Source: a virus
DNA length: 64,000 nt
Virus record (IMG/VR): IMGVR_UViG_3300005289_000003
Location: 22,445-86,444 of that record
Strand: one strand, 5' to 3'
This document shows, in pieces, positions 4,075 to 15,604 of the stretch. Under the pieces are notes generated by a model. That model saw nothing but the letters and a program-made list of their open reading frames with translations. It was not told the DNA's origin and did no database searches. Position numbers and translations under genes: made by a program. Position 1 is the stretch's first letter. Every line of letters starts with the position of its first letter.

Positions 4075-4081
4075 ATGGCTT

Positions 4082-4166
4082 GCCATGGATGCACGCATGG
4101 GACGTGCGCCAGTCTGTAGAACTGGTGTCTAACAAGGCTAAGTAGGTTCGATTCCTACCCGTGGCA
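4082..4166 (+). tRNA. tRNA-Tyr(GTA), atypical D arm
   Basis: Anticodon arm CCAGT-CT-GTA-GA-ACTGG, long variable arm, 5-bp D stem GCACG/CGTGC, A at position 8. Confidence 0.85.
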
Positions 4167-4168
4167 CT

Positions 4169-4275
4169 GGAGACAATGAGGATAGAGCAGAGTCCCTAAC
4201 CCGTAAGGGTGGGACGGTTTCCATAGCTGGCCACCGGCGAAACTCTGCTTTCACGGTTCAATTCCGGAGTCTCCT
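4169..4275 (+). ncRNA. tRNA-like element A (acceptor and T arm; long helix in place of D/anticodon arms)
   Basis: GGAGAC/GTCTCC; TCACGG-TTCAATT-CCGGA; related to element B at 6042. Confidence 0.6.
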
Positions 4276-4301
4276 CTATTCAAAAACTATAAGGAGTATT
4301 T

Positions 4302-4511
4302 GTGGGCAGAGCTACACACACGACAACCACGATTAGGCGAATCATTGTTGGTCAAGAGTTCTATCTCTCTATCGACGGAGTCACCGCTTACAAGCTCCTG
4401 ACCAAGTCAGACATTGGTGGAGCAAGCTACAACGTCACCTTCAAGCGTGCAGACAATGAAGGTGAAACCGAGCATGGAGACTGGCCGTACAACACCAAGG
4501 TCTACATCTGA
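4302..4511 (+). CDS. hypothetical small protein
   Basis: AAGGAG SD before GTG. Confidence 0.7.
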   Translation: MGRATHTTTTIRRIIVGQEFYLSIDGVTAYKLLTKSDIGGASYNVTFKRADNEGETEHGDWPYNTKVYI

Positions 4512-4816
4512 CGGGGTCATGCCTGTTGGCCCGTTGCTGGTGAGCCTGTAGGCGAGCGGAGCACACCAGCCCAAAGAGGCTCACCTTTGCAGGGGTAGAG
4601 CCTCAATAGGTGGCCCCCGTGACGGTACCCAGAAGCCACGTGGTAGGGCTCTGGTGAGCTACCGGGGGCAGAGGCCCTAGGTTGTGTTCCAGCCCTTCCT
4701 AGGGCCTCTCAGACGTCTCTGTGGGAGCTTCCCTGTCCCCCCGTCAGGGCCACAGAGACAGGGGGAACCCTGGTGGGTTCCACTCCCCCCGGAATTCCTA
4801 GGGTTCCCCCGTTCAA

Positions 4817-4889
4817 GCGTCGTTAGCTTAATTGGTAGAGCTACGGTCTCCAAAACCGTCAGGTGAGGGTTCGAATCCCTTGCGGCGTG
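4817..4889 (+). tRNA. tRNA-Trp(CCA)
   Basis: Anticodon arm ACGGT-CT-CCA-AA-ACCGT. Confidence 0.92.
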
Positions 4890-4908
4890 CTCCAAAGGAG
4901 GAAACTAT

Positions 4909-5034
4909 ATGAGCAAAAATATATCTGGTATGGAGTGTGGCTGCATGCTGGTTATTGAGTACGGTAAAGCGCCGTACATCATCAGGCACGCTAATTGCAA
5001 GAAGGCCCACGGCACACCAGAGAAGAAGAATTGA
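4909..5034 (+). CDS. small CGC...CxxxH protein (41 aa, not in ORF track)
   Basis: AAGGAGG SD; MSKNISGMECGCMLVIEYGKAPYIIRHANCKKAH; paralog at 6843. Confidence 0.7.
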   Translation: MSKNISGMECGCMLVIEYGKAPYIIRHANCKKAHGTPEKKN

Positions 5035-5035
5035 C

Positions 5036-5539
5036 ATGACCATGTCAGATGCCGATCACATGCACCCGCATGTGGCTAGGGCTCTTCACGATGCTTTGAA
5101 GAGTGGGGACTACAAGCAAGGTCACAACTTCCTTCACAAGGTAATGAAGGACATAGGTGATCTTTACTGCTGCTTGGGTGTCCTTTGCCGGCTAGCCATT
5201 AACGCTGGCGTAGTGGTTCCTCAGGAAGAGTTCAATCTAGGGAACGGCAATCAGGTAGTCATCAAGTATGAAGGTGATGACGGGTGGCTTGGCCTGATAG
5301 TCAGTGAGTGGGCCGGAAAGCACGCTACTCCTTCTTATAGGCTTCCTCTCTGGTACGACGAAGAGAAGAAGATTCCTTTTGCTGGGGACCTTGACGAAGA
5401 AATGGACCGTATTACTCTGGCCATCTTGAATGATGGAGATAGCAATAGGTTCCATGGTCTGACATTCTCTCAAATAGCCGACATCGTTTTGTTCATGTGG
5501 GGATACGGCGATGAAGACGAAGTATCGGCTAACGATTAG
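5036..5539 (+). CDS. conserved phage hypothetical protein (YCCLGVLC motif)
   Basis: LKSGDYKQG...YCCLGVLC...LND...TFSQIAD pattern recalled from phage hypotheticals. Confidence 0.75.
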   Translation: MTMSDADHMHPHVARALHDALKSGDYKQGHNFLHKVMKDIGDLYCCLGVLCRLAINAGVVVPQEEFNLGNGNQVVIKYEGDDGWLGLIVSEWAGKHATPSYRLPLWYDEEKKIPFAGDLDEEMDRITLAILNDGDSNRFHGLTFSQIADIVLFMWGYGDEDEVSAND

Positions 5540-5670
5540 ACGGAGTAACGGAAGACTCGTTCGCGAATACGGCAACCTGAGCAAGTACGCGGCTAAAGTC
5601 CGTAGAGATGAACTAGAAGACAAATACGATTCCGGCTATTACGTCGAATTGACACCCGATAGGAAACCCA

Positions 5671-5958
5671 ATGCTGAATAATCCAGGTCTCGTCTACGTC
5701 TGCTACATGGTCAGTGGGGACCAGGAGCCACGGCCCATCAAGGTGGGTCTGACGTATGACGAAGCCTTGAAGGAAGTCAACGCGAATAAGAGGGCTGTCA
5801 AAACCGTACTCAGGTTCGCGTGGATCGCTGGCCTGTTCAGTAAGGAAGCGCGCAAGAACATGCAAACCCTGAAGGGTGTGAAGTACTACATCACGGGGTA
5901 CCGGCCCACGGCGGTCAACAACCTTGCCACGGTGGATGAGGAGTGGGCAGAACAATAA
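5671..5958 (+). CDS. hypothetical protein
   Basis: ORF with phage-like codon usage. Confidence 0.65.
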   Translation: MLNNPGLVYVCYMVSGDQEPRPIKVGLTYDEALKEVNANKRAVKTVLRFAWIAGLFSKEARKNMQTLKGVKYYITGYRPTAVNNLATVDEEWAEQ

Positions 5959-5966
5959 GGAAATAA

Positions 5967-6039
5967 GCCCCATTAGCTCAGTGGACAGAGCGACACCCTT
6001 CTAAGGTGAAGGCCGTAGGTTCGACTCCTACATGGGGTA
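5967..6039 (+). tRNA. tRNA-Arg(TCT)
   Basis: Acceptor GCCCCAT/ATGGGGT, anticodon loop CT-TCT-AA. Confidence 0.92.
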
Positions 6040-6041
6040 CG

Positions 6042-6140
6042 GGGGCACGATGTGGAAACGCGGGGAAGTAGGAAACAGTTTCTTCCTCCTTTATGTTTCC
6101 TATGATGACCGTTGTCACGGTTCGATTCCGGGGTGCCCCT
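6042..6140 (+). ncRNA. tRNA-like element B
   Basis: GGGGCAC/GTGCCCC; TCACGG-TTCGATT-CCGGG; followed by TCTATTCA as in element A. Confidence 0.6.
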
Positions 6141-6516
6141 CTATTCACTCTGAAGAGTGACCTGTAAGCACACCTATAAGTAGACTCTCCCTTCTGTCTG
6201 GCAGGATAAGAGCCACGGCTAGCATGCTGTCTGTGGTGACTGAAACTGCCCCGTACGCGGAGAATGGCAAAGGGAGCGCATGTCACGCCACTGTGGATGA
6301 GTCATAGCCCTACCGAGTGCGCCGGTTCTAAGGGGTTAGGCGTTCGTCCGGAAGAGCGCTGGAACGAATGAGGGCCTACTAGGTGGAGTCGATTGGACTA
6401 CTCGGGTCAGGTTGTCTAGGGTCTTAGAGCTGACGCAACCTGATGCAAAAGGGACGGGTAGGAGACTGAGAAGCCGATAATGTAGGCCCTCATTTGTTTT
6501 GTCCAAAGGAGGAAAA

Positions 6517-6843
6517 ATGACAGATTTCATTATTGGCTGGATTCTTCCACCATTGATGGTTATCGTGCTAGTAATCATGAATGTGTGTGGATACATGACA
6601 AAGAAGGGATACGATAAATACGTATGCCTGTCATGGGGAATAATGGCTATTTATTCTCTCGTCAAGGTTGATATCGGCGGGATAATCATCTACCTTACTT
6701 TTTCTCTTTATCACGGTTACAAGTGGTGGAAGAACCGCAAGGATGACGACTGGACCGACAAGGGTAACAAGCCAAAGCGGAAGCGTTCCCGTAACTGGGT
6801 TCCGAAGCTAAAGAACCCTGAACCAACAAAGTCGGTGGTGTAG
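6517..6843 (+). CDS. membrane protein
   Basis: AAGGAGG SD; hydrophobic segments and a basic tail. Confidence 0.75.
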   Translation: MTDFIIGWILPPLMVIVLVIMNVCGYMTKKGYDKYVCLSWGIMAIYSLVKVDIGGIIIYLTFSLYHGYKWWKNRKDDDWTDKGNKPKRKRSRNWVPKLKNPEPTKSVV

Positions 6844-6944
6844 TGGCGACCGAGAAGCGTCCGCTAAGTTGCGGTTGTGTCCTGGTATTCGTGGATGGCA
6901 AGTTTTCACATCAGGACGTTAAGAACTGCAACAGAGGGCATTAG
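6843..6944 (+). CDS. small CGC...CxxxH protein (33 aa, not in ORF track)
   Basis: TAGTG coupling; MATEKRPLSCGCVLVFVDGKFSHQDVKNCNRGH. Confidence 0.65.
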   Translation: MATEKRPLSCGCVLVFVDGKFSHQDVKNCNRGH

Positions 6945-7038
6945 TTATTAATGGGTGGGCGAGGAAGACACCGCGCGTGGTCGGTGCTTGGAAACCGCCC
7001 TATGCCTCTGCACCAGATAGCCAGAGGTAGCCACGCAT

Positions 7039-7125
7039 GGGGAGTTGGCAGAGTGGCCGAATGCACTAGTCTTGAAAACTAGAGGGGCCTTAAAACCCCC
7101 AAGGGTTCAAATCCCTTACTCCCTT
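7039..7125 (+). tRNA. tRNA-Ser(TGA)
   Basis: Anticodon arm CTAGT-CT-TGA-AA-ACTAG, long variable arm. Confidence 0.92.
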
Positions 7126-7126
7126 C

Positions 7127-7237
7127 GTGATACAAGAAGATGGTTGTACCTGCTGCGAGGATGGCGGGTTTACCGAGGGATATGGTAATAGCCATCGGTG
7201 CGGCAATTGTGGACACACTGAAGGAGCCCATAAGTAA
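7127..7237 (+). CDS. CxCC micro zinc-finger paralog 1 (36 aa)
   Basis: MIQEDGCTCCEDGGFTEGYGNSHRCGNCGHTEGAHK. Confidence 0.7.
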   Translation: MIQEDGCTCCEDGGFTEGYGNSHRCGNCGHTEGAHK

Positions 7238-7377
7238 TGGCCGAATGTACCTGTTGCACAAATGGTGCCTTTGTTGAAGGACTCAACCCGAACCTGTGTA
7301 ACAACTGCTTTCACCTGAAGTCGCTTCACTCCATCGTGGTGAGCTTCTTCAAGTTCTGGAATAGGATTAGCTTCTGA
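7237..7377 (+). CDS. CxCC micro zinc-finger paralog 2 (46 aa)
   Basis: TAATG coupling, AAGGAG SD; MAECTCCTNGAFVEGLNPNLCNNCFHLKSLH... Confidence 0.8.
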   Translation: MAECTCCTNGAFVEGLNPNLCNNCFHLKSLHSIVVSFFKFWNRISF

Positions 7378-7490
7378 TGGGTGTCTGTATCTGCTGCCTC
7401 TTTGGTGACTTCAAGGGTGGTGGCGAAAAGGACATCAAGGATATATGCGGGTGTGGCCATCACAGGAAAGACCACCAGAAGAGGTTTTAA
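7377..7490 (+). CDS. CxCC micro zinc-finger paralog 3 (37 aa)
   Basis: TGATG coupling; MGVCICCLFGDFKGGGEKDIKDICGCGHHRKDH. Confidence 0.8.
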   Translation: MGVCICCLFGDFKGGGEKDIKDICGCGHHRKDHQKRF

Positions 7491-7603
7491 TGTTCTTCTT
7501 TCTCTTCGGAGCATGTAGTTGCTGCTTGGCAGGCTCCTTCTCTGAGGGTGGCAACGACGGTAAGTGCTCCCTCTGCAATCACACGTACGGAGCACACACC
7601 TAG
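7490..7603 (+). CDS. CxCC micro zinc-finger paralog 4 (37 aa)
   Basis: TAATG coupling; MFFFLFGACSCCLAGSFSEGGNDGKCSLCNHTYGAHT. Confidence 0.8.
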   Translation: MFFFLFGACSCCLAGSFSEGGNDGKCSLCNHTYGAHT

Positions 7604-7608
7604 AAATA

Positions 7609-7697
7609 GGTAGGGTGGCAGAGTGGCCTATTGCGCGTCCCTGCTAAGGACGTAAGGGAACAACACACCTTCCAGGGTTCGAATCCCTGCCCTACCG
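7609..7697 (+). tRNA. tRNA-Ser(GCT)
   Basis: Anticodon arm CGTCC-CT-GCT-AA-GGACG, long variable arm. Confidence 0.93.
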
Positions 7698-7725
7698 CGC
7701 ACCATTAAAAAGGAGGAAATAAAGG

Positions 7726-7842
7726 ATGCTTTGGTACCTATTTGCAGGTTGCTACTGTTGCTTCATCGGTGACTTCATCGAGAGTGATAGCGACCGGAAA
7801 ACCTGCAAGAGATGTACGCATGTGAGGGGTGCTCATTCTTAA
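7726..7842 (+). CDS. CxCC micro zinc-finger paralog 5 (38 aa)
   Basis: AAGGAGG SD; MLWYLFAGCYCCFIGDFIESDSDRKTCKRCTHVRGAHS. Confidence 0.8.
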   Translation: MLWYLFAGCYCCFIGDFIESDSDRKTCKRCTHVRGAHS

Positions 7843-7988
7843 TGGGCTCTTGCTCATGCTGTAACTCTGGTGGATTCGAAGCTAGCGCTACAGCCCTCAT
7901 TTGCAAACATTGTCTTCATGTCAGGTCTGCTCACTCTGGCTACTTCCACTACATGGCTTCCTTCCTCCGCTACATGACAGGAAGGTAA
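7842..7988 (+). CDS. CxCC micro zinc-finger paralog 6 (48 aa)
   Basis: TAATG coupling; MGSCSCCNSGGFEASATALICKHCLHVRSAH... Confidence 0.8.
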   Translation: MGSCSCCNSGGFEASATALICKHCLHVRSAHSGYFHYMASFLRYMTGR

Positions 7989-8065
7989 ATAGCGTGGAGT
8001 ATGACGGGCCTCCACGGTGGTGAACGTGCGGCCGTAGGTAGCCACCGAAACAAATCCCGTCAAAT

Positions 8066-8141
8066 GCCCCCGTAGCTTAGCCGGGTTTAAAGCGCCACCC
8101 TGTCAAGGTGGAGACCGAGGGTTCAAATCCCTTCGGGGGCG
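8066..8141 (+). tRNA. tRNA-Asp(GTC)
   Basis: Anticodon arm CCACC-CT-GTC-AA-GGTGG. Confidence 0.94.
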
Positions 8142-8288
8142 CGTGCTACGTAATGGCAATTGCGTAGAGTCTGTGGTCAGCAACCGCCAATTGCTCCGCG
8201 CGACAGACACGCATTACGTGTGGCCGAGTGACCGGCAATGCTTTGGTGGTGGAGATGGTCACGCTGCCTACCAGAGAGCCACACGGAA

Positions 8289-8362
8289 CGGGTCATAGCT
8301 CAATTTGGTGGAGCGCTTGGTTTGGGACCAAGAGGTTACAGGTTCAAATCCTGTTGGCCCGA
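8289..8362 (+). tRNA. tRNA-Pro(TGG)
   Basis: Acceptor CGGGTCA/TGGCCCG, anticodon arm CTTGG-TT-TGG-GA-CCAAG. Confidence 0.93.
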
Positions 8363-8458
8363 CGCGAAAGGAGGAATGATGCGTAGATTCCTGGAAGAGC
8401 TTCTAGAGAGAATCGCGGACATGAACGACAACGACACGAGAGAGCTTGGCAAGGATCG

Positions 8459-8647
8459 GTGAGTATAGCCACCTTTGGAATCTTTTGTTTCCTCTGGTTG
8501 GCCGCTGCTTACTCGCTCTGTATTTACTTGATAAAGACAGTTCGGGACGACACGTTTAACCTTAGGGTCACAATTGCTTGCTTCTCTGTCCTGATACCTG
8601 TGGGCATCCTGCTACTGGTGGTGTCCTTTGTGTCAGTGGTGACTTAG
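8459..8647 (+). CDS. small membrane protein
   Basis: Two hydrophobic helices. Confidence 0.6.
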   Translation: MSIATFGIFCFLWLAAAYSLCIYLIKTVRDDTFNLRVTIACFSVLIPVGILLLVVSFVSVVT

Positions 8648-8670
8648 CAAGATTTGAAGGAGGAATTGAG

Positions 8671-8838
8671 ATGGGTTTCGCGATAGCCATAGTCGTCATG
8701 CTCGTTGCCCTGGTGGTTGTGATGTCTGCTCTACTGGCGGTTGACCAGCACATCCGGAACAGGCCACCCTTGGCCCCCACCATCAAGCAAGACATTGCTG
8801 AAGCGGTGGAGCGTTACCGGACGGAGCTTTACCAGTGA
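8671..8838 (+). CDS. small membrane protein
   Basis: AAGGAGG SD before ATG 8671; N-terminal hydrophobic helix. Confidence 0.65.
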   Translation: MGFAIAIVVMLVALVVVMSALLAVDQHIRNRPPLAPTIKQDIAEAVERYRTELYQ

Positions 8839-9128
8839 GCTTGGTTGAAGCGATATACGAAACCGCGCTACTAGACATCCTGGTTGCCCTGGAAGCGGGA
8901 CACCCTGAAGAAGCCGCCAGGATGGCCCGTAAGGCTCTGGGAGTACCTGACCCATCCAAGGACACCCAGGACGGTTCAGAGGCTGTCAGCGTGGCTCCTG
9001 GGGGCCTTCATGGGCTCAGTGGGCTTGAGACCTTGCCGGTACTTGTCAGGGACTCAGGGGGTATGCCCGTCAGGGGTAACGGGCTACCTCCAATCAATTG
9101 GCGTCGTCCGTGGATGAGGAAACGGTGA
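8835..9128 (+). CDS. hypothetical protein
   Basis: GTGA overlap with upstream ORF. Confidence 0.55.
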   Translation: MSLVEAIYETALLDILVALEAGHPEEAARMARKALGVPDPSKDTQDGSEAVSVAPGGLHGLSGLETLPVLVRDSGGMPVRGNGLPPINWRRPWMRKR

Positions 9129-9364
9129 GCTTCTTCCGCCGTAGATTTTGGATCCGAAGTCCAGAGCAAAAAGCTTTCGCCAGGATCGTTGCCCTTGGGT
9201 GTGAGCTTCTTCAGGAAGAGTTTCCTGAACTCTCAAAGAGGGAGTTCGACGTAATAGCGGTGACGATCCTGGAAGAGCTAATGGAGTCGGATCCGGATAC
9301 TCTCATTAGTCCCTCTTCGCTCGTGTGGCGCGTGAGAGAACGGGTCAGGTCTTCTAGGCTCTGA
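9125..9364 (+). CDS. hypothetical protein
   Basis: GTGA overlap; GAGG SD. Confidence 0.6.
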   Translation: MSFFRRRFWIRSPEQKAFARIVALGCELLQEEFPELSKREFDVIAVTILEELMESDPDTLISPSSLVWRVRERVRSSRL

Positions 9365-9480
9365 TTTCGTGTGGTCTGCCTGAGGGACACTGAAGAGGGC
9401 AGGGTAACGATGGACACATAAGAGCGTGGCTCTCTAAAAGCACGTCGCTGCCCAACCATCGCCGCACCAATGGATAAGGT

Positions 9481-9810
9481 ATGGACGAAGTAGACACTGT
9501 TAAAAGAGAAGTGTCAATAAAAGGTCAGTGGGTTGACCGGATTGTTAAAGACCCAGACTTGTCGGAAAGAGAGAAACTTCTCCTTCTGGTTATTAGTAAC
9601 TTCATGAATAGATCAGGTATAGCTTTTGTCAATAGGATGAATGTTGCTGCCTATAGTGGCATTAGCTCTGCTAAGATCAAAAGCATGGTAGAAAGTCTAG
9701 CCGAAAGACATTACCTATCCGTTAGATTCACACTCCCTGGTACAAACACAAAGAACAGTCCAAATTATAGGAAGTTTGAAGTTCACGGATTGATAGAAGC
9801 GGATGGGTGA
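9481..9810 (+). CDS. winged helix-turn-helix DNA-binding protein
   Basis: DLSEREKLLLLVI...RMNVAAYSGISSAKIKSMVESLAERHYL, typical phage HTH pattern. Confidence 0.65.
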   Translation: MDEVDTVKREVSIKGQWVDRIVKDPDLSEREKLLLLVISNFMNRSGIAFVNRMNVAAYSGISSAKIKSMVESLAERHYLSVRFTLPGTNTKNSPNYRKFEVHGLIEADG

Positions 9811-10002
9811 AGCATGAAGGCTGGACACATCAACGTAGGCAATGGCTTTAAGTGGACACCAGACGATGATGATTGCGTCTGTGTGGGCAGAGAAGACGAA
9901 CCAGATGAGACCAGGATTCGCATCATCTGGCGCTATAAGGACAGTCAGAGCAATTACACCACTTCGGTATCAAGAGAAGACACGCTTTATTAAGGAATAA
10001 CT

Positions 10003-10242
10003 ATGGGTTTCAAGTTGCGTACTTACTCCAGTGTCGCACTGTTGGTAGCGCTTATCCTGACTGCTGCTATCCTGGCGAGTTGCAAGCCTGCCGGTAGCCT
10101 TTCGGGGCCTCCCCTGGGTGTCTGCAAGTACAAGGCAAATGCCGTGGTCCTGAAGGATGACGGTAAGTGGAAGTGCTACAGCACCAAGAAGCAGAATGGC
10201 GTCACGGTCCTGGTCCGTCAGAAGACTTGGGACAAGAAGTAA
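10003..10242 (+). CDS. putative lipoprotein
   Basis: Signal peptide with lipobox LASC. Confidence 0.65.
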   Translation: MGFKLRTYSSVALLVALILTAAILASCKPAGSLSGPPLGVCKYKANAVVLKDDGKWKCYSTKKQNGVTVLVRQKTWDKK

Positions 10243-10455
10243 ATGGGGTTTTGGAGCAACGACGCTCCGAAGCAGAAGTATGGAACCCTAGGAGTGCGTT
10301 CGGAATTCAAGTTCAGCCCTAGTGGATATACCTGTATCGTCACTGGGGTATCCAATGGTGCATACGGCAAACTAGTCATCACCTATAAGATAAAGGGTGG
10401 TGATGGTGGTACCGCCAGTATGGATGTCTACCCAACCGAGAGTTGTTACCTATGA
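10243..10455 (+). CDS. hypothetical small protein
   Basis: Abuts upstream ORF. Confidence 0.6.
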   Translation: MGFWSNDAPKQKYGTLGVRSEFKFSPSGYTCIVTGVSNGAYGKLVITYKIKGGDGGTASMDVYPTESCYL

Positions 10456-10631
10456 CTCCTGATGAACTGGCGGAATTTGCCGGTAGGTTTATGTTCCTGC
10501 TAGACAAAGACTGGGTTTACCGCGCTCCTGAGACGTTCATCAAGCCTGCCCGTATCTGGTGGGCTCTAGCGAATAAGAATTGGGAGATGGCAAACCGGTT
10601 GCTATCGGAGCTTGAATCCGATAGCGTCTAA
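10452..10631 (+). CDS. hypothetical protein
   Basis: ATGA overlap. Confidence 0.6.
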   Translation: MTPDELAEFAGRFMFLLDKDWVYRAPETFIKPARIWWALANKNWEMANRLLSELESDSV

Positions 10632-10645
10632 ACAACTGAATACAT

Positions 10646-10718
10646 GGTGTCTGTGGCAGAGTGGCTATGCACTGGATTGTGGGTCCAGACCACGTGGGTT
10701 CAAATCCCACCAGACACA
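10646..10718 (+). tRNA. tRNA-His(GTG)
   Basis: G-1 encoded; acceptor GTGTCTG/CAGACAC; anticodon arm CTGGA-TT-GTG-GG-TCCAG. Confidence 0.9.
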
Positions 10719-10719
10719 C

Positions 10720-10863
10720 GAGGTACCGAAGCGAAGAAGACGGATACTTCAATGGATAAACCGTAGGTCGTTGGTTCAAATCCAACCCTCCCAACCATTG
10801 GGAGGTAGCTCAGTGGTTAGAGCAACGGTGAAAAGACTGTCTTCGATTATTTCTCGGTACCTC
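10720..10863 (+). ncRNA. Y RNA unit 1, YrlA-type (circularly permuted tRNA module)
   Basis: Terminal stem GAGGTACCGA/TCGGTACCTC, GAAGCG motif; T arm, acceptor closed by ACCAT loop, then D arm; upstream of Ro60. Confidence 0.85.
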
Positions 10864-10869
10864 CCAGTT

Positions 10870-11009
10870 TGGCACTGAAGCGGAAGGTAAGGGTTACTCC
10901 TAATATGAATAGGGTAGACCAGGTTCGAATCCTGGCCGCTCCACAATAAGGGGCGGTAGTGTAATGGCAGCACACTAAAAATACCCAAACCTAATATTTC
11001 TCAGTGCCA
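10870..11009 (+). ncRNA. Y RNA unit 2, YrlA-type (circularly permuted tRNA module)
   Basis: TGGCACTGA/TCAGTGCCA; CCAGG-TTCGAAT-CCTGG, CCGCTCC/GGGGCGG, GTGT-AATGGCA-GCAC. Confidence 0.85.
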
Positions 11010-11017
11010 CCCAGTTT

Positions 11018-11140
11018 GACCCGAAGCGTAGTAACTGGTTACTTCTCTCCGCCAGGGCCTAGCCCGGAGGGCACCTACTTCCAAGCTTTTAAACTTGGTT
11101 TCGTAGGAACCTGTGTGCCAATTACGATATTTCTCGGGTC
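11018..11140 (+). ncRNA. Y-RNA-like unit 3
   Basis: GACCCGA/TCGGGTC; GAAGCG...TACTTC...TATTTCTC scaffold; two cargo hairpins. Confidence 0.75.
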
Positions 11141-11148
11141 GCCTAGAC

Positions 11149-11314
11149 GGCTTCAGAAGCGAAGAGAGAAGATACTTCTACAGAGAAAGAAAGTCCGTCC
11201 GACCAACGGCGCGCTACCTACTCCACACGTCATTGAGTAGGAGCAAGGGTGTAATTACCAGATGTTGTGATTTGTTAATACCACCCGTCTTTTCTCAAGT
11301 ATTACTCTGAAGTC
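11149..11314 (+). ncRNA. Y-RNA-like unit 4
   Basis: GGCTTCAGA/TCTGAAGTC; same scaffold; three cargo hairpins. Confidence 0.75.
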
Positions 11315-11321
11315 TCCTTGT

Positions 11322-11414
11322 TGGGTCAGAAGCGGACGGATAGGTTACTTCACAAACACCACTATTAATGGTGTCTCTAAGAGACAAACTTATTCGAATT
11401 ATTTCTCTGACCCA
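11322..11414 (+). ncRNA. Y-RNA-like unit 5
   Basis: TGGGTCAGA/TCTGACCCA; same scaffold; short cargo. Confidence 0.75.
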
Positions 11415-11418
11415 CCCT

Positions 11419-11505
11419 AAAGCAAGAGGCACCGAAGCGGAGAATACGGTTACTTCTTTCGGCTGATAGATCCGTATTCGTTTATTACTCGGTGCTCCTT
11501 GCTTT
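11419..11505 (+). ncRNA. Y-RNA-like unit 6 (minimal)
   Basis: Extended terminal stem ending GCACCGA/TCGGTGC; GAATACGG/CCGTATTC; same scaffold. Confidence 0.75.
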
Positions 11506-11532
11506 TATTACTCTCCCGAAAGGAGAAGCGGC
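11506..11532 (+). promoter_or_regulatory. putative translational operator: permuted Y-RNA scaffold covering the Ro60 SD
   Basis: TATTAC-TCTCC-cgaaa-GGAGA-AGCGG-c-ATG. Confidence 0.55.
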
Positions 11533-13140
11533 ATGGGAAAGCTAGGTAAGCAAAGCGCAAAGCTTCAGGTGGAAAGTGCGAACAAGAAGGCTGGACTGAT
11601 TCGCACCAGCGGGGGAAAGACCACCACTCATGAAGGTGGAACCGGGCACCTACGCGATACCAAGTCGGAACTATTCCTTCTTGGTGTTACCAACATGGTG
11701 TCTGAGCAAACCTTCTATGAGCGCGGTTCGGATCGTGACAAGCGCTTTATGGGTCTGCTCATCACGGTGACCCATCAGGATGCCGATTGGGTATCTCGGT
11801 TCCTACCGTGGCTACGCGGACCAGGCAACATGAGAACCGCTTCTATCGTCGGTGCGGCTGTCTATGCCCGCACCGTCCTGTCCATGGCTCCTGAGGCACG
11901 TGAGGCTCTTTACAGGGCTTTCCCTGGGGCCACGGTCCGGAAGGTTGTGGCGTCCGTCCTACAGCGTCCCGACGAACCAGCAGAGTTCATCTCCTACTGG
12001 CTTCAGGGAAGTGACACCAAGACGCTTCCTGGTGGCGTGCAGCGTGGTCTAGCCGACGCGGTAAAGCGTCTGTACACGGAACGGAACTCCCTGAAGTACG
12101 ACGGACAGAACCAGCCATGGCGTATGTCTGACGTGATTCAGTTGGTTCACCCGGACCCTGATACTGAGGTTCAGTCTCTTCTTTTCGATTACCTTGCCAA
12201 GAAGCGCTTCAGCGGAAGCGAAGCGGTAATCCCAGACGAACTCTTGATGCTTCAGGCAAACAGGAAGCTCTACGAAATCCCTCAGGAGCTACGTCGGGAG
12301 CGTCTGGCAGCAGACCCGAAGTCAATGGCTACCATTCTCCGGAGTGGTGGCATGACCTGGGAATCACTAGCAACGTGGCTAGGTGGTCCTCTGGGTAAGG
12401 AAGGTTGGGAGGCAATTGCTCCTAGCCTGGGAATCTTCGCTCTGGTCCGGAACCTTCGGAACATCAGTGAAGCTGGAGTGAGCAACGAGGTTCAGGAAGC
12501 CCTAGCGGCAAAGATTTCTGACCCTCAGGTAATTGCCAACTCTCGTATGTTCCCTCTTCGCTTCTACACGGCGTATCGGGAAGCCACGAACGTCATATGG
12601 AGCTACCCCCTTGAGAAGGCCCTGATGGCTTCTCTGGGGAACATTCCGAAGTTGGACGGCCGAACGCTGGTACTGATCGACCAATCAGGTTCGATGAATT
12701 TTTCTATGTCGAACAAGTCCACCGTGCGACTCTCGGAACAGGCTGCCTTGTTCGGTATCGCTCTGGGCATGGCTGCCGACAATGCGGATGTCTACGTCTA
12801 CGGGAATTCTCACAAGGAAATCCCGCTACCCAAGGGTGGTTCAATCCTGCCGCTTGTCGCTAAGTACGGTCAGGCTGATATGGGTGGAACCCAGACATGG
12901 ACCACTGCCAGATCCCTTTACCGGGGTCATGACAGAATCGTTATCGTGACGGATGAGCAGAGCCACGATAGCGCGTACGGAATTCCGGATATCCCCATCG
13001 TGACCTTCAACGTTGAGGGCTACAAGGCTGCCCACACGGAATCCTCAAAGAAGAGAATCACCGTGGGTGGTCTGTCGGATGGTGGGTTCAGCCTGATTCA
13101 GGCCATGGACTCCGCCGGTAAGGGTGAGTGGCCTTTCTGA
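11533..13140 (+). CDS. rsr: Ro60/TROVE-domain RNA-binding protein with C-terminal vWA domain
   Basis: THEGGTG...KSELFLL...FYE N-terminus, MTWE, ALVRNLRN, RMFPLRFYTAY, MIDAS DQSGSM, VIVTDEQ. Confidence 0.93.
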   Translation: MGKLGKQSAKLQVESANKKAGLIRTSGGKTTTHEGGTGHLRDTKSELFLLGVTNMVSEQTFYERGSDRDKRFMGLLITVTHQDADWVSRFLPWLRGPGNMRTASIVGAAVYARTVLSMAPEAREALYRAFPGATVRKVVASVLQRPDEPAEFISYWLQGSDTKTLPGGVQRGLADAVKRLYTERNSLKYDGQNQPWRMSDVIQLVHPDPDTEVQSLLFDYLAKKRFSGSEAVIPDELLMLQANRKLYEIPQELRRERLAADPKSMATILRSGGMTWESLATWLGGPLGKEGWEAIAPSLGIFALVRNLRNISEAGVSNEVQEALAAKISDPQVIANSRMFPLRFYTAYREATNVIWSYPLEKALMASLGNIPKLDGRTLVLIDQSGSMNFSMSNKSTVRLSEQAALFGIALGMAADNADVYVYGNSHKEIPLPKGGSILPLVAKYGQADMGGTQTWTTARSLYRGHDRIVIVTDEQSHDSAYGIPDIPIVTFNVEGYKAAHTESSKKRITVGGLSDGGFSLIQAMDSAGKGEWPF

Positions 13141-13343
13141 TGAAAGTAACCATTGGGGAACTAATGGATACCATCAACAAGGTTCTAAATGACCCTGACA
13201 ACCCATTCGACATGGGGCCTGATACGGAAGTGGTGGTGAGTCGCGGTATCTTTCATCCGGACTCACCAGAAGGGAAATTCCAGGTACTAATGGTTGCCCC
13301 TTATCAGGGTAAACTTCATCTGGTAGTTTCCAAGCTTCACTGA
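13140..13343 (+). CDS. hypothetical protein coupled to Ro60
   Basis: TGATG overlap. Confidence 0.65.
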   Translation: MKVTIGELMDTINKVLNDPDNPFDMGPDTEVVVSRGIFHPDSPEGKFQVLMVAPYQGKLHLVVSKLH

Positions 13344-13432
13344 ATGATGTGGTCTAGCACCTAGGTAAGACTCTGTACTAAGGCGCCTTAGGTGTTTGCG
13401 TCGATAGATCGGGTAGTGCAGAGCACCACTAT

Positions 13433-13506
13433 GGATCGCTAGCTCAATTGGTCAGAGCAATGCGCTCTTAACGCATAGGTTCAGGGTTCGAGTCCCTGGC
13501 GATCCA
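13433..13506 (+). tRNA. tRNA-Lys(CTT)
   Basis: Anticodon arm ATGCG-CT-CTT-AA-CGCAT. Confidence 0.94.
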
Positions 13507-13534
13507 CTTAATAGTCCTGTGGTAGAGTGCAGTT

Positions 13535-13957
13535 ATGCCTATTTGCCATGTCTGCTCAAAAGAAGTCGATAGATACGCCAACAACAAGCGTTGCCGAGAA
13601 TGCTATAACGAATATATGCGCGAATATATGAAAAAGCGCTTTCACCAAAAGCGTGCAGAAATGATAGCCATTCTTGGTGGCGTTTGTGTTCATTGTGGAA
13701 CTACAGAAAAGCTGGAATTCGACCACATATTTGAGAATACCAAATCATGGGATATAGGTAAGATTTGGGGACACCGTAAAGTAATAGCTGAATTGAAGAA
13801 GATTCAGTTGCTATGCAATAGCTGCCACAAAAAGAAGTCAGCTAGATATATGAGTGTTGACCATGGTGGCGGTCTATCTGGTAAAGATGGTTGCAAATGT
13901 ACAAAGTGCAAAGCACGCAAAGCAGAATATATGAAGAAATACAATAAGCCCCGTTAG
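13535..13957 (+). CDS. HNH endonuclease (probable free-standing homing endonuclease)
   Basis: CVHCG...LEFDHI...QLLCNSCHKKKS; AT-rich; between two tRNA-Lys genes. Confidence 0.88.
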   Translation: MPICHVCSKEVDRYANNKRCRECYNEYMREYMKKRFHQKRAEMIAILGGVCVHCGTTEKLEFDHIFENTKSWDIGKIWGHRKVIAELKKIQLLCNSCHKKKSARYMSVDHGGGLSGKDGCKCTKCKARKAEYMKKYNKPR

Positions 13958-14021
13958 CCCAACCTGGTAGGGCAATCGGCTTTTAACCGATAGATTGTAG
14001 GTTCAAATCCTACACGGGGCA
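13948..14021 (+). tRNA. tRNA-Lys(TTT)
   Basis: Anticodon arm ATCGG-CT-TTT-AA-CCGAT. Confidence 0.93.
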
Positions 14022-14022
14022 C

Positions 14023-14256
14023 ATGGACATTTACGACGTATTCAGGTCAGTAGCGGATGCCATTCCCAATGGAGGTAATTCACGAAAGAGAATGAGGAGA
14101 CGTGTCAAGGCTTACCGTATGGCTGACAGCATCATGGACCCGAAGTCATTCCTTCGTTCTCAGACCTACTGTCGGATGGGTAAGCACCAGCCTGTAGGCA
14201 AAATGTATTGCATCATCTGCGAGCATTGCCGCAAAGTCCTAGGAAACAACTATTAG
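14023..14256 (+). CDS. hypothetical protein with C-terminal Cys/His motif
   Basis: CRMGKH...CEHC; ATG immediately after tRNA-Lys. Confidence 0.6.
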   Translation: MDIYDVFRSVADAIPNGGNSRKRMRRRVKAYRMADSIMDPKSFLRSQTYCRMGKHQPVGKMYCIICEHCRKVLGNNY

Positions 14257-14328
14257 GGGCCTTAGCTCAGTTGGTAGAGCACTTGCCTTGCAAGCAAGGG
14301 GTGGGGGGTTCGATTCCCCTAGGCTCCA
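14256..14328 (+). tRNA. tRNA-Ala(TGC)
   Basis: GGGGCCT/AGGCTCC with G3:U70; anticodon loop CT-TGC-AA. Confidence 0.94.
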
Positions 14329-14329
14329 C

Positions 14330-14533
14330 ATGAACAATCAAAAGTTGGTAGTAGGTTTCTGTGATGGCAGCATGGAAATCCACGATTGGCAGCGTGGTTA
14401 TAGCTTGACCACGGATGTCGGTACTGGAGAGATGCTTTGGATCTATAAGAAAGAAGGTGCCAAATATGTAAAGATTGGTAGCCTGGAAGATATCGACTGG
14501 TTTACCATCAGTGGCAAGATAACAATCAAGTAA
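14330..14533 (+). CDS. hypothetical protein
   Basis: ATG immediately after tRNA-Ala. Confidence 0.55.
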   Translation: MNNQKLVVGFCDGSMEIHDWQRGYSLTTDVGTGEMLWIYKKEGAKYVKIGSLEDIDWFTISGKITIK

Positions 14534-14541
14534 TGGTTTAA

Positions 14542-14615
14542 GGGTGTGTAGCTCAGTTGGTTAGAGCATTCGGCCGATAACCGAAAGGTCGGGGGTTCAA
14601 TTCCTCCCACACCTA
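14542..14615 (+). tRNA. tRNA-Ile(GAT)
   Basis: Anticodon arm TTCGG-CC-GAT-AA-CCGAA (C33). Confidence 0.9.
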
Positions 14616-14617
14616 CG

Positions 14618-14760
14618 CTGTCATTCCGGGGTTTCCTCAGCCGGAATATTAAGTCACATGTACTCTTCCGGAAATGGTTTTGGCTTAGCACCATACTAGA
14701 CCGGAACGGTTGGGCAAAGGCAGAGAGCTAAGCCGATCGCCTTTCAAGCATGTGAGACAG
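14618..14760 (+). ncRNA. putative kissing-loop ncRNA
   Basis: Nested stems plus loop-loop complement GGCTTAGC/GCTAAGCC. Confidence 0.5.
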
Positions 14761-14764
14761 TTAA

Positions 14765-14836
14765 GGCCCTATCTTCCAGCGGTTAGGAAGCGAGGTTTTC
14801 ACCCTCGTAACCGGGGTTCGACTCCCCGTAGGGTCA
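14765..14836 (+). tRNA. tRNA-Glu(TTC)
   Basis: Anticodon arm CGAGG-TT-TTC-AC-CCTCG. Confidence 0.92.
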
Positions 14837-15008
14837 CGAGTCGCAAAGAGGCATGATGCCTAGAGAGATTCTAGGATGGGTTCGATGGTGTCTTACCTTG
14901 TGAAACAAACTCTTTGTGGCTCTCTTCTAGATGGTGACTAGAAGAAGCGGCACCTTCGGGTCTGGCTAGGGGTGCAAGAAGCCCCAGGGGTTGCCGCCCC
15001 TGGGGTGA

Positions 15009-15082
15009 GCCCACATATCCCAATTGGTAGAGGAGACGGATTCAAACTCCGTATGTTGTCAGTTCAAATCTGACTGTGGGTA
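15009..15082 (+). tRNA. tRNA-Leu(CAA), short variable arm
   Basis: Anticodon arm ACGGA-TT-CAA-AC-TCCGT; resembles the short actinobacterial Leu(CAA). Confidence 0.88.
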
Positions 15083-15110
15083 CGTCGTCTCTGACTGTGG
15101 GTACGTCGTC
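15069..15110 (+). repeat. 21-bp tandem direct repeat of the tRNA-Leu 3' end
   Basis: TCTGACTGTGGGTACGTCGTC twice. Confidence 0.9.
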
Positions 15111-15232
15111 ATGGTGGCCATACTGCTTCACCCGAATAACCAGCGCTGGTGTCGCTTGTCGGTACCGGCTGGACTTGTCCAGTTCACAAGCGGCAGGGTG
15201 TGTAAGGCGGAGCAACCACCATGACGTCTTAT

Positions 15233-15303
15233 GGCTACGTACGCAATTGGTTAGCGAGACGTCTGCAAAACGTCGTAAGCCGGTTCGATTCCGGCCGTAG
15301 CTT
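15233..15303 (+). tRNA. tRNA-Cys(GCA)
   Basis: Anticodon arm GACGT-CT-GCA-AA-ACGTC, U73. Confidence 0.92.
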
Positions 15304-15470
15304 CGTGGGGTATAGCTTAAGTAATTGACATTGCCTGCCAGCAATCGAGATGAAATGGCTAGACGTTGGCAGACGTTCCGATGCCTCAGAAACATCGGTG
15401 CCCCGTTAAACTCCTGTTGGACCCAGGAGAGCAAGAAGCCCCATAGGAGTTCCAGCCCCTATGGGGTCAC

Positions 15471-15553
15471 GCCCGTGTGGTGGAATTTGGTATACACGCT
15501 AGCCTTAGGAGCTAGTGCCGAAAGGTTTGCAGGTTCGAATCCTGTCACGGGTA
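15471..15553 (+). tRNA. tRNA-Leu(TAG)
   Basis: Anticodon arm CTAGC-CT-TAG-GA-GCTAG, long variable arm. Confidence 0.94.
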
Positions 15554-15604
15554 CTTCCGCCAGAGTGCGGATATAGGGAACTAGATAAGAAAGGAGGAAA
15601 AAAT

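What the first reader, a model, noticed from the sequence alone, without database searches (positions are those of the whole stretch)
10720..13140. Ro60 gene preceded by a tandem array of six Y-RNA-like units: one conserved scaffold, six different cargo modules
Seen: six consecutive units (10720-10863, 10870-11009, 11018-11140, 11149-11314, 11322-11414, 11419-11505) share the layout stem1-GA-AGCG-NA-stem2-TACTYC-[cargo]-stem2'-TATTWC-TC-stem1'. The stems differ in sequence in every unit but stay complementary, while the unpaired motifs are kept, which is covariation within one genome. Cargo runs from about 15 to about 110 nt. The array begins 2 nt after tRNA-His and ends at the Ro60 RBS. Established: bacterial Ro60 (Rsr) binds Y RNAs through a terminal stem with a GNCGAA-like 5' strand; Y RNA genes lie next to rsr, usually one or two (Salmonella YrlA/YrlB), and some phages carry them. 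Inference: this phage builds a set of at least six Ro60 RNPs with interchangeable effector domains, for example to tether different enzymes or to act as decoys against tRNA-targeting defences. I know of no description of an array this large, but could not search. No RtcB gene is visible in this window.
Basis: partly seen in the sequence, partly recalled or inferred. Interest (0 to 1): 0.93.

Follow-up and report, generated by a model that had tools for sequence, protein, structure and literature searches.

The report
Six-gene Y RNA array beside phage Ro60
An 86-kb soil phage carries six back-to-back small RNA genes that share one Ro60-docking stem but differ in their inner parts, just upstream of its Ro60 gene. 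This is an enlarged version of the known bacterial Ro60/Y RNA pair, and I found arrays of 5-7 units in at least ten other phage genomes, apparently undescribed in print.

Summary
Six tandem units (10720-11505, + strand) lie between tRNA-His and a 535-aa Ro60/TROVE gene. All six share the layout stem1 / AGCG-NA loop / stem2 / TACTYC / cargo / stem2' / TATTWC loop / stem1'. The stems differ between units but each stays complementary to its own partner.

A covariance model built from two of the units plus six units from other loci recovers all six. It finds nothing else in the 64 kb on either strand. The same scaffold sits upstream of Ro60, always on the Ro60 strand, in about 190 phage, metagenome and Streptomyces/Pseudofrankia loci. 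The terminal stem covaries strongly across 77 units (96% paired).

Cargo 1 and 2 are circularly permuted tRNA mimics of the YrlA type. Unit 6 resembles the short YrlB-like class. Cargo 3-5 match nothing I could find.

These are therefore Y RNA genes of the known Ro60 system, here expanded to six. The array is not the largest: three uncultured contigs have 7, Arthrobacter phage Atuin has 6 and Streptomyces phage Alone3 has 5, none annotated as Y RNA genes. Bacterial loci gave 1-3 model hits.

I found no paper describing such arrays; published cases have two. This scan has flagged similar arrays before on other DNA. Binding, processing and cargo function remain untested.

The parts
10647..10719 (+). 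tRNA-His(GTG), the last tRNA before the array. Unit 1 starts 0-2 nt after it.
   Evidence: ARAGORN; Rfam tRNA 60.2 bits
10720..10863 (+). Y RNA unit 1 (144 nt), YrlA type. The scaffold carries a circularly permuted tRNA mimic: T arm, 7-bp acceptor stem closed by the loop ACCAT, then D arm.
   Evidence: R1 39.6 bits, E 4e-9, not in the training set; Rfam YrlA 38.3 bits, E 1.2e-6, below the cut-off of 69; ARAGORN calls the re-permuted cargo a cloverleaf tRNA
10870..11009 (+). Y RNA unit 2 (140 nt), YrlA type. It carries a permuted tRNA mimic whose acceptor stem has G3-U70 followed by A73.
   Evidence: R1 34.6 bits, E 1.1e-7, not in the training set; Rfam YrlA 21.8 bits, E 0.068; ARAGORN on the re-permuted cargo
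11018..11140 (+). Y RNA unit 3 (123 nt). Same scaffold with a 71-nt cargo of two hairpins that is not tRNA-like.
   Evidence: R1 32.6 bits, E 4.4e-7, not in the training set; fold; cargo has no significant similarity elsewhere (only 13-nt chance-level matches, E 0.55)
11149..11314 (+). Y RNA unit 4 (166 nt). Same scaffold with a 109-nt cargo of three hairpins that is not tRNA-like.
   Evidence: R1 17.8 bits, E 6e-4, filters off only; R2 28.7 bits, E 5e-5, not in its training set; fold
11322..11414 (+). Y RNA unit 5 (93 nt). Same scaffold with a 37-nt cargo of two small hairpins.
   Evidence: R1 66.4 bits, but it was in the training set; fold
11419..11505 (+). Y RNA unit 6 (core 11428-11497). 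It belongs to the short, YrlB-like class with a pyrimidine-rich 22-nt loop. An extra outer helix, 11419-11426 with 11498-11505, encloses it.
   Evidence: R1 52.3 bits, but it was in the training set; compared with 112 short units from other loci
11506..11532 (+). Ro60 leader. It reads TATTACTC, a small hairpin (TCC-CGAAA-GGA) whose 3' arm lies within the Shine-Dalgarno AGGAG, then GAAGCGG. This is both strands of the Y scaffold loop in swapped order. It could be an operator or a remnant of a seventh unit.
   Evidence: Sequence. Related GGUGCG-loop leader hairpins occur in a few other loci. There is no general enrichment across 173 loci.
11533..13140 (+). Ro60 (TROVE plus vWA) gene, 535 aa. The MIDAS-type motif DQSGS is intact.
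   Evidence: Pfam TROVE E 6.8e-12; solved phage phiLo Ro60 9KOP E 2.9e-29; 4018 homologues, all 120 listed carrying Pfam TROVE (PF05731); the named ones are Frankia/Streptomyces TROVE or RNA-binding proteins at 44-52% identity; D383, S385 and S387 invariant in alignment A2

Best explanation
The region encodes six Y RNAs that are paralogues of each other, the RNA partners of the phage's own Ro60 protein.

**Transcription and processing (inferred).** The six are transcribed together with the surrounding tRNA genes and the Ro60 mRNA as one long precursor. Host tRNA and RNA processing nucleases then cut the precursor into RNAs of about 70-165 nt. This follows the case of M. smegmatis YrlA and YrlB, which are processed from a single precursor.

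**Docking (inferred by homology).** Each RNA closes its 5' and 3' ends into a 7-10 bp stem. Next to that stem is a conserved asymmetric internal loop, AGCG-NA opposite (N)TATTWC. This module corresponds to the Ro60-binding stem of known Y RNAs, so all six should dock on the same site of the Ro60 ring.

**Variable parts.** These differ between units. Two are sealed, circularly permuted tRNA look-alikes (YrlA type). One is a short hairpin with a pyrimidine-rich loop (YrlB-like). Three are unique to this phage.

**Most likely role (inferred).** The variable parts act as adaptors or decoys. They would tether Ro60 to different host proteins, such as PNPase or other exoribonucleases and tRNA-handling enzymes, or gate the access of substrates to the ring. 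The locus lies inside the phage's tRNA island, which points to control or protection of tRNA and other structured RNA during infection.

**Shown here:** the anatomy, the homology of the scaffold, covariation, and synteny with Ro60.
**Not shown here:** expression as discrete RNAs, binding to Ro60, and any function of the cargo.
For: 1. All six units have the same parsed layout and each folds into it.
2. Covariance models recover units they were not trained on, and find nothing else in the window or in the whole 86-kb genome.
3. Model R1 gave 175 + 48 + 93 + 24 + 28 hits at E <= 0.01 over about 215 fetched loci (viral, metagenome, isolate-phage and bacterial). Every hit in the Ro60-anchored loci is on the Ro60 strand and nearly all lie within about 2.3 kb upstream of Ro60. 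Model R2 gave 67 hits and none on the opposite strand.
4. Across 77 units from 25 loci the terminal stem is 96.4% paired, and 6 of its 8 pairs show changes on both sides. The covariation score is 0.573, against 0.18 for shuffles and 0.10-0.19 for slid partners. Pairing is specific to each unit: mean run 7.6 with the own partner against 4.1 with others for stem1, and 6.8 against 5.2 for stem2.
5. Rfam YrlA hits units 1 and 2 at E 1.2e-6 and 0.068. ARAGORN reads both cargos, once re-permuted, as cloverleaf tRNAs.
6. The protein is a Ro60: Pfam TROVE, phiLo Ro60 structure at E 2.9e-29, and an intact MIDAS motif.
7. No promoter-like or terminator-like site lies on the + strand within the array or between it and the Ro60 start, which fits one transcript.
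8. Published relatives. M. smegmatis YrlA and YrlB lie upstream of rsr, come from one precursor and co-precipitate with Rsr (PMC4201824). Thermus phage phiLo Ro60 binds two upstream Y-like RNAs and host PNPase (PMC12135203). A Ro60-like protein of phage Bas63 counters the ppl defence system (bioRxiv 10.1101/2024.10.10.617714).
9. Weak hint only: runs labelled metagenomic RNA-Seq hold short contigs, at least 99% identical, that lie on parts of the array.
Against: - There is no direct evidence for discrete RNAs, for their ends or for binding to Ro60.
- No unit reaches the Rfam YrlA curated score. Neither did any unit of 18 other loci tested, which included Streptomyces.
- The published motif GNCGAA(N)G is matched only loosely. 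All six units have GCG-N-A, but only units 1 and 4 have CGAA.
- Stem2 pairs only 60% in the model-made alignment, because its register varies between units.
- Cargo 3-5 have no detectable relatives, so they cannot be tested by covariation.
- The RNA-labelled contigs cross unit borders, and the tool flags two of the three runs as probably DNA.
Confidence: 0.8

Rival explanations
1. The six units are not separate RNAs. They form one long structured 5' leader of the Ro60 mRNA, and act in cis, for example as a sponge or sensor that sets Ro60 translation or mRNA stability.
For: - No promoter or terminator lies between the units and the ORF.
- Spacers between units are only 4-8 nt.
- The leader right before the start codon repeats both loop motifs of the scaffold around the Shine-Dalgarno.
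- RNA-labelled contigs cross unit borders and the border between unit 6 and the ORF.
Against: - In Arthrobacter phage Atuin, units lie on both sides of Ro60 and between tRNA genes, so they cannot all be its leader.
- In M. smegmatis the homologous RNAs are cut from one precursor into discrete Rsr-bound RNAs (PMC4201824).
- tRNAs in the same cluster must be cut out in any case.
Confidence: 0.07
2. Only units 1 and 2 (YrlA type), and perhaps unit 6, are functional. Units 3-5 are decaying duplicates that lost their tRNA-like part and have no role.
For: - Cargo 3-5 have no relatives in about 200 loci or elsewhere in the genome.
- The spacers before units 2 and 3 share CCAGTT(T), which points to recent duplication.
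Against: - Units 3-5 keep perfectly complementary stem1 and stem2 with different sequences, and keep every unpaired motif. This is the pattern of selection, not decay.
- Units with non-tRNA cargo make up a large share of arrays in other phages as well.
Confidence: 0.08
3. The units work without Ro60. They would be tRNA-like decoys or processing signals of the tRNA operon, and the link with Ro60 reflects shared regulation only.
For: - The array sits inside a cluster of 22 same-strand tRNA genes.
- The tRNA mimics could engage RNase P, the CCA-adding enzyme or aminoacyl-tRNA synthetases on their own (PMC4201824).
Against: - The scaffold is found next to Ro60 in about 190 loci, including bacterial loci without tRNA clusters.
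- It is not found elsewhere in this phage's tRNA cluster.
Confidence: 0.05

Closest known systems
Bacterial Rsr (Ro60) with YrlA and YrlB Y RNAs (Salmonella Typhimurium, Mycobacterium smegmatis; Chen et al. 2014, PMC4201824; Rfam RF02553)
   Same: - The RNAs are encoded just upstream of Ro60 on the same strand.
- A terminal stem made by the 5' and 3' ends carries a GCGAA-like motif on its 5' strand.
- One RNA class carries a permuted tRNA mimic (T arm, acceptor stem, D arm).
- A second class is a long hairpin with a pyrimidine-rich loop.
- Several RNAs are cut from one precursor.
   Different: - There are six RNAs here instead of two.
- Three cargo modules belong to neither published class.
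- The locus is embedded in a phage tRNA island.
- There is no RtcB/RtcA operon.
- The units score below the Rfam YrlA cut-off (38.3 against 69 bits).
Thermus phage phiLo Ro60 with Yrl1 and Yrl2 (NAR 2025, PMC12135203; PDB 9KOP, 9L5Y)
   Same: - A phage-encoded Ro60 with Y-like RNAs directly upstream.
- The proteins are related (E 2.9e-29).
- Both have a stem, internal loop and stem layout with a CGAA-type motif.
   Different: - phiLo has two RNAs, not six.
- In phiLo, binding to Ro60 and to host PNPase was shown in vitro. Nothing has been tested here.
Deinococcus radiodurans Rsr with Yrn1 and Yrn2 (plus small RNAs a-d upstream of rsr) and the Ro60-Y RNA-PNPase machine
   Same: - Several small RNAs are encoded upstream of rsr.
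- The Y RNA acts as a tether between Ro60 and an exoribonuclease, which is the working model adopted here.
   Different: - It is a different Y RNA lineage, in which both strands of the Ro-binding helix resemble the metazoan type.
- RNAs a, b and d bind Rsr weakly and their status as Y RNAs is uncertain.
Vertebrate Y RNAs (two to four distinct Y RNAs per species; PMC4201824)
   Same: A small family of paralogues shares a conserved Ro60-binding stem and differs in its loops. The loops are thought to recruit different partners.
   Different: - They are separate RNA polymerase III genes, not a co-transcribed tandem array.
- They have no tRNA-like module.
- There are at most four.
Ro60-like gp130 of coliphage Bas63 (PhageMaP preprint, 10.1101/2024.10.10.617714)
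   Same: - A phage Ro60-like gene sits next to the phage's tRNA genes.
- A genetic role in countering a host defence system (ppl) gives a precedent for an anti-defence reading.
   Different: - It is a very distant protein, recognised by structure only.
- Its partner RNAs were only guessed at in that paper.

Membership tests
Ro60 / TROVE proteins | TROVE (HEAT-repeat ring) domain | tested here: met
   Pfam PF05731 at E 6.8e-12, 45.7 bits against a cut-off of 23. All 120 listed homologues carry Pfam TROVE (PF05731); the named ones are called TROVE domain-containing or RNA-binding protein.
Ro60 / TROVE proteins | C-terminal von Willebrand A domain with a MIDAS motif (DxSxS) | tested here: met
   DQSGS is present in the translated ORF (sequence). 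D383, S385 and S387 are invariant in the ten-protein alignment A2. The match to solved phiLo Ro60 covers residues 258-528.
Bacterial/phage Y RNAs (YrlA/YrlB type) | Encoded within about 4 kb of Ro60, on the same strand | tested here: met
   The units occupy 10720-11505 and the Ro60 ORF starts at 11533, both on the + strand.
Bacterial/phage Y RNAs (YrlA/YrlB type) | The 5' and 3' ends pair into a long stem next to an internal loop | tested here: met
   RNAfold of all six units. Stem1 is 96.4% paired, with changes on both sides in 6 of 8 pairs across 77 homologous units.
Bacterial/phage Y RNAs (YrlA/YrlB type) | GNCGAA(N0-1)G motif on the 5' strand (Chen 2014) | tested here: inconclusive
   All six units have GAAGCG-N-A. 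Only units 1 and 4 read GCGAAG. The family consensus across loci is G-R-N-G-Y-G-N-A-G. This is close to the published motif but not identical.
Bacterial/phage Y RNAs (YrlA/YrlB type) | At least one RNA carries a tRNA-like module (T arm, acceptor stem, D arm) | tested here: met
   Units 1 and 2: alignment to Rfam YrlA, and ARAGORN on the re-permuted cargo gives a 7-bp acceptor stem, a D arm and a T arm.
Bacterial/phage Y RNAs (YrlA/YrlB type) | Reaches the Rfam RF02553 gathering score | tested here: not met
   38.3 and 21.8 bits against 69. None of 18 related loci, including Streptomyces and cultured phages, reaches it either. The Rfam model seems not to cover this actinobacterial and phage branch.
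Bacterial/phage Y RNAs (YrlA/YrlB type) | Stable discrete RNA that is physically bound by Ro60 | not testable with these tools
   The only data are short contigs from runs labelled RNA-Seq lying on the array. They do not show ends, strand or binding.

The most novel reading that the evidence does not exclude
Phages have turned the two-RNA Ro60/Y RNA pair into a plug-in adaptor set. One docking handle is copied 5-7 times, and each copy carries a different module that recruits or decoys a different host factor, such as tRNA-handling enzymes, exoribonucleases or RNA-targeting defence nucleases. Cargo 3-5 of this phage would then be new protein-binding RNA modules. In addition, Ro60 would limit its own synthesis by binding the swapped-order copy of the handle that covers its Shine-Dalgarno.
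Probability: 0.3. Interest if true: 0.75.

Novelty: new variant of a known kind. Interest (0 to 1): 0.55.

Why it matters
What the variable parts of Y RNAs do is a long-standing open question. Published bacterial and phage systems offer only two RNAs each.

Arrays of 5-7 Y RNAs share one handle and differ in their modules. They occur in cultured, harmless actinobacteriophages: Arthrobacter phage Atuin, and Streptomyces phages Alone3 and BRock. That gives a natural series in which single modules can be deleted, swapped and pulled down.

The arrays also show that GenBank phage annotations miss these genes or mislabel them. In GiJojo and Alone3 the tRNA-like part is annotated as a tRNA. In Neville small ORFs are called over the units.

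Tried and rejected
**Searches that found nothing**
- Megablast of 10600-13200 against the phage collection: no match.
- The search for related loci with the single Ro60 protein in viral contigs: no match. The alignment query worked.
- A published M. smegmatis YrlA probe (27 nt, PMC4201824) searched in genome contigs: no match. I therefore could not test my models on the experimentally validated RNAs.
- A scaffold pattern scan of viral contigs gave 18 more loci, but none is a close relative that keeps cargo 3-5.

**Tools or papers not available**
I could not fetch the contigs of the two closest Ro60 relatives, P0002 (71% identity) and P0003 (67%, on an 84-kb contig). They would have allowed covariation tests on cargo 3-5.
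- The reviews PMC10870794 and PMC6542706 are not held. I could not check whether they mention larger arrays.

**Expression data**
- No RNA holder is listed for the stretch apart from three runs with a small share of its words.
- When those runs were laid on the stretch, no contig covered the Ro60 ORF beyond 11591. A part without cover counts neither for nor against expression.

**Other negatives**
- Cargo 3-6 against about 200 loci and the phage's own genome by short-word BLAST: nothing beyond chance.
- Rfam at E <= 10 over the array: only chance-level hits on units 3-6.
- RtcB and a CCA-adding enzyme (PolyA_pol): both absent from the complete genome.
- The ten neighbouring small ORFs have no informative Pfam family.
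- My first loose motif scanner was too noisy, with 96 hits on the plus strand against 89 on the minus strand, so I replaced it.
- A Y-handle motif in Ro60 leaders as a general feature: rejected, with 13 of 173 loci observed against 13.5 expected.

**Considered and rejected**
- A coding reading of the ORFs that overlap the array (78, 65, 88 and 70 aa). The conservation pattern is paired stems with invariant loops.
Full report
**What is there.** The window is bases 22445-86444 of an 86,444-bp virus record with direct terminal repeats, which CheckV estimates as complete. Its source appears to be a soil metagenome. GC content is 50.8%. The finding lies inside a cluster of 22 tRNA genes on the + strand, spanning 255-15554.

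tRNA-His ends at 10718 or 10719. Six units follow, with spacers of 4-8 nt between them. After a 27-nt leader comes a 535-aa ORF at 11533-13140.

The ORF is a Ro60:
- Pfam TROVE at E 6.8e-12.
- The solved Ro60 of Thermus phage phiLo (9KOP) at E 2.9e-29.
- 4018 homologues. All 120 listed carry Pfam TROVE (PF05731). The nearest named ones are Frankia, Parafrankia and Pseudofrankia proteins at 49-52% identity, followed by Streptomyces at 44-46%.
- An intact MIDAS-type DQSGS motif, invariant in a ten-protein alignment.

**Checking the observation.** Every unit parses as stem1, AGCG-NA, stem2, TACTYC, cargo, stem2', a 3' loop ending TATTWC, then stem1'. RNAfold folds each unit that way. Cargo runs from 15 to 109 nt. 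The stems have different sequences in the six units, but each pairs with its own partner. Stem1 pairs 8 of 8 with its own partner. Across units the run is mostly 2-5, except between units 1 and 6, whose inner strands are nearly the same.

I built covariance model R1 from eight short-cargo units: units 5 and 6 of the window and six from other loci.
- It found units 1, 2 and 3, which it had never seen, at E 4e-9 to 4e-7.
- It found unit 4 at 17.8 bits once the speed filters were off.
- It found nothing else in the 64-kb window on either strand and nothing else in the whole genome.

A second model, R2, was built from 77 units and did not include unit 4. It scores unit 4 at 28.7 bits, E 5e-5.

**Relatives.** I therefore gathered Ro60 loci in three ways:
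- back-translated searches of viral, metagenome and genome collections;
- tblastn of the isolate-phage collection;
- a scaffold pattern scan.

R1 gave 175, 48, 93, 24 and 28 hits at E <= 0.01 on these sets. In the loci oriented by their Ro60 gene, every hit is on the Ro60 strand, and nearly all lie within about 2.3 kb upstream of the gene.

In an alignment of 77 units from 25 loci, the terminal stem is 96.4% paired. Six of its eight pairs change on both sides. The covariation score is 0.573, against 0.18 for shuffled partners and 0.10-0.19 for slid partners. Stem2 pairs only 60% there because its register differs between units. A register-free test still shows unit-specific pairing: runs of 8 or more occur in 44% of own pairs against 6% of foreign pairs.

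The family consensus is stem1, G-R-N-G-Y-G-N-A-G, stem2, (N)UACUUC, cargo, stem2', G(A/U)UCUC, stem1'. The window's GAAGCG / UAUUWCUC is a local version of this.

**What the units are.** Cargo 1 and 2 each hold a T arm, a 7-bp acceptor stem closed by a loop, and a D arm. This is the circularly permuted tRNA mimic that defines YrlA.
- Rfam YrlA aligns to both, at 38.3 bits (E 1.2e-6) and 21.8 bits (E 0.068), below the cut-off of 69.
- When I re-permuted the cargo in a script, ARAGORN called both as cloverleaf tRNAs.
- None of 18 related loci, including Streptomyces, reaches the Rfam cut-off. The curated model seems not to cover this branch, so the miss says little about these particular units.

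Unit 6 matches the short class of about 70 nt that is the best-conserved unit upstream of Streptomyces Ro60 genes. [quoted passage not shown] 2014. Cargo 3, 4 and 5 are hairpin sets with no detectable similarity to any of about 200 loci, to the rest of the genome, or to any Rfam family.

**How it most likely works.** No sigma-70-like promoter or intrinsic terminator lies on the + strand within the array or between it and the Ro60 start. The units are 4-8 nt apart and abut a tRNA. I therefore infer one precursor that is cut into tRNAs, Y RNAs and the Ro60 message. This is what Chen et al. showed for M. smegmatis YrlA and YrlB (PMC4201824).

By homology, the shared stem and internal loop form the Ro60 docking site, and the variable modules are free to bind other factors. 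Published precedents are:
- Y RNA tethering of Ro60 to PNPase in Deinococcus and Salmonella;
- phiLo Ro60 with Yrl RNAs binding host PNPase (PMC12135203);
- tRNA enzymes acting on YrlA (PMC4201824);
- a Ro60-like phage protein that counters the ppl defence system (bioRxiv 10.1101/2024.10.10.617714).

Ro60 sits inside the tRNA island in this phage and in BRock, GiJojo, Alone3 and Atuin. This points to a role in the handling of tRNA or structured RNA during infection. The genome has no RtcB and no CCA-adding enzyme, so any processing relies on the host. All functional steps are inferences.

The only expression data are short contigs, at least 99% identical, from three wastewater runs labelled metagenomic RNA-Seq. 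They lie on 10642-10749, 10814-10964, 11103-11317 and 11447-11591. The tool flags two of these runs as probably DNA, and contigs cannot show ends or strand, so this is a weak hint at most.

**How unusual is six?** With R2 and filters off:

| Locus | Units |
|---|---|
| This window | 6 |
| Viral contigs L060, L083, L227 | 7 each |
| Viral contigs L088, L226, L221, L098 | 6 each |
| Arthrobacter phage Atuin (OK040794) | 6 |
| Viral contig L099 | 5 |
| Streptomyces phage Alone3 (OR725492) | 5 |

In Atuin the units lie on both sides of Ro60 and between tRNA genes. With R1, BRock and GiJojo have 4, Gordonia phage Neville 3 and Satis 2. My own motif-plus-stem scanner has a minus-strand background of about 0.4-0.5 hit per locus. 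Over 174 distinct loci it gives a mode of 2-3 units, with 5 or more in 10 of 92 viral or metagenome loci (the window included) and 1 of 80 bacterial loci. Bacterial loci gave 1-3 R1 hits. Six is therefore in the upper tail, but it is neither unique nor the maximum.

**Literature.** Chen et al. 2014 reported one best YrlA per genome in 254 bacteria and 22 phages, and two Y RNAs in each species they studied. [quoted passage not shown] The 2025 phiLo paper describes two. Iyer et al. 2021 mention TROVE proteins in jumbo phages with a tRNA-like partner. My five full-text searches found no description of arrays of three or more Y RNAs in phages. Two key reviews are not held.

In GenBank the arrays are not annotated as Y RNA genes, and parts are mislabelled. 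A tRNA-Arg(cct) in GiJojo and a tRNA-Ser(gct) in Alone3 fall inside YrlA-type units. In Neville, small CDSs gp88-90 overlap the units.

This scan has flagged similar many-RNA arrays beside Ro60-like genes on other DNA. I did not test those notes.

**The leader.** Between unit 6 and the start codon the sequence reads TATTACTC, TCC-CGAAA-GGA, GAAGCGG. These are the 3' and 5' loop motifs of the scaffold in swapped order, joined by a hairpin whose 3' arm lies within the Shine-Dalgarno. I noticed this independently.

In one clade of viral contigs (L075, L079/L081, L119, L114) the Ro60 leader is a hairpin with a covarying stem, an invariant GGUGCG loop and the Shine-Dalgarno in its 3' arm. L099 has CCGAAGCGAGAGGAG. 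Across 173 loci the handle motif is not enriched in leaders: 13 observed against 13.5 expected. Autoregulation is therefore possible in some lineages. The element could equally be a remnant of a seventh unit.

**Verdict.** The units are Y RNA genes of the known Ro60 system, and the reading as Ro60 partners is well supported by comparative evidence. The functional reading of the cargo is untested. The claim of exceptional size does not hold.

The value of the finding is that it belongs to a widespread class of expanded, modular Y RNA arrays in phages that I could not find described in print, and that this class has cultured representatives ready for experiments. I rate it a new variant of a known kind, with interest 0.55.

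Noticed in passing
window 11506-11532: The Ro60 leader holds both loop motifs of the Y scaffold in swapped order (TATTACTC ... GAAGCGG) around a hairpin whose 3' arm lies within the Shine-Dalgarno. Similar GGUGCG-loop Shine-Dalgarno hairpins with covarying stems occur in L075, L079/L081, L119 and L114, and L099 has CCGAAGCGAGAGGAG. The motif is not enriched in leaders overall (13 of 173 loci against 13.5 expected).
   Followed up: partly
window 10783-10812 and 10931-10962: The tRNA mimic of unit 1 has a 7-bp acceptor stem whose closing loop reads ACCA-T, which is a discriminator base plus CCA. The mimic of unit 2 has G3-U70 and A73, the identity set of tRNA-Ala. If RNase P opened these loops, as it does in M. 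smegmatis YrlA, acceptor ends would be exposed.
   Followed up: partly
L207 2667-2741 (Streptomyces phage GiJojo), L208 2675-2748 (Alone3), L209 2349-2759 (Gordonia phage Neville): GenBank annotates a tRNA-Arg(cct) and a tRNA-Ser(gct) inside units that my models call YrlA-type Y RNAs. In Neville three small hypothetical CDSs (gp88-90) overlap Y units. These are probably annotation errors.
   Followed up: partly
L088 2632-2808: A match to the Rfam manA RNA motif (RF01745, 57.4 bits, above its cut-off of 55.2) sits between two Y units of a six-unit array upstream of Ro60.
   Followed up: no
L125-L203 (Streptomyces Ro60 loci), about 2700-2800: The short Y unit of Streptomyces has an almost invariant stem1, CCUCCCGG ... 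CUCGGGAGG. It contains the anti-Shine-Dalgarno-like CCUCC and a Shine-Dalgarno-like GGGAGG. Many Ro60 leaders in the same group form an anti-SD/SD hairpin (CCTCCCCTC ... GAGGGG) just before the start codon.
   Followed up: no
window 10864-10869 and 11010-11017: The spacers before units 2 and 3 both read CCAGTT(T). This could be a shared processing signal or a trace of a recent duplication.
   Followed up: no
L218, L219, L224: The same scaffold (R1 at 38-42 bits) occurs in viral contigs where the units have 30-36% GC. In L218 it lies near a Ro60 only 28% identical to this one. The handle therefore extends well beyond high-GC actinobacterial phages.
   Followed up: no
window 10642-11591: Wastewater runs of 2024-2025 hold short contigs at least 99% identical to parts of the array, although the window seems to come from a 2012 soil sample. 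The phage or a very close relative is thus present in a second habitat.
   Followed up: partly
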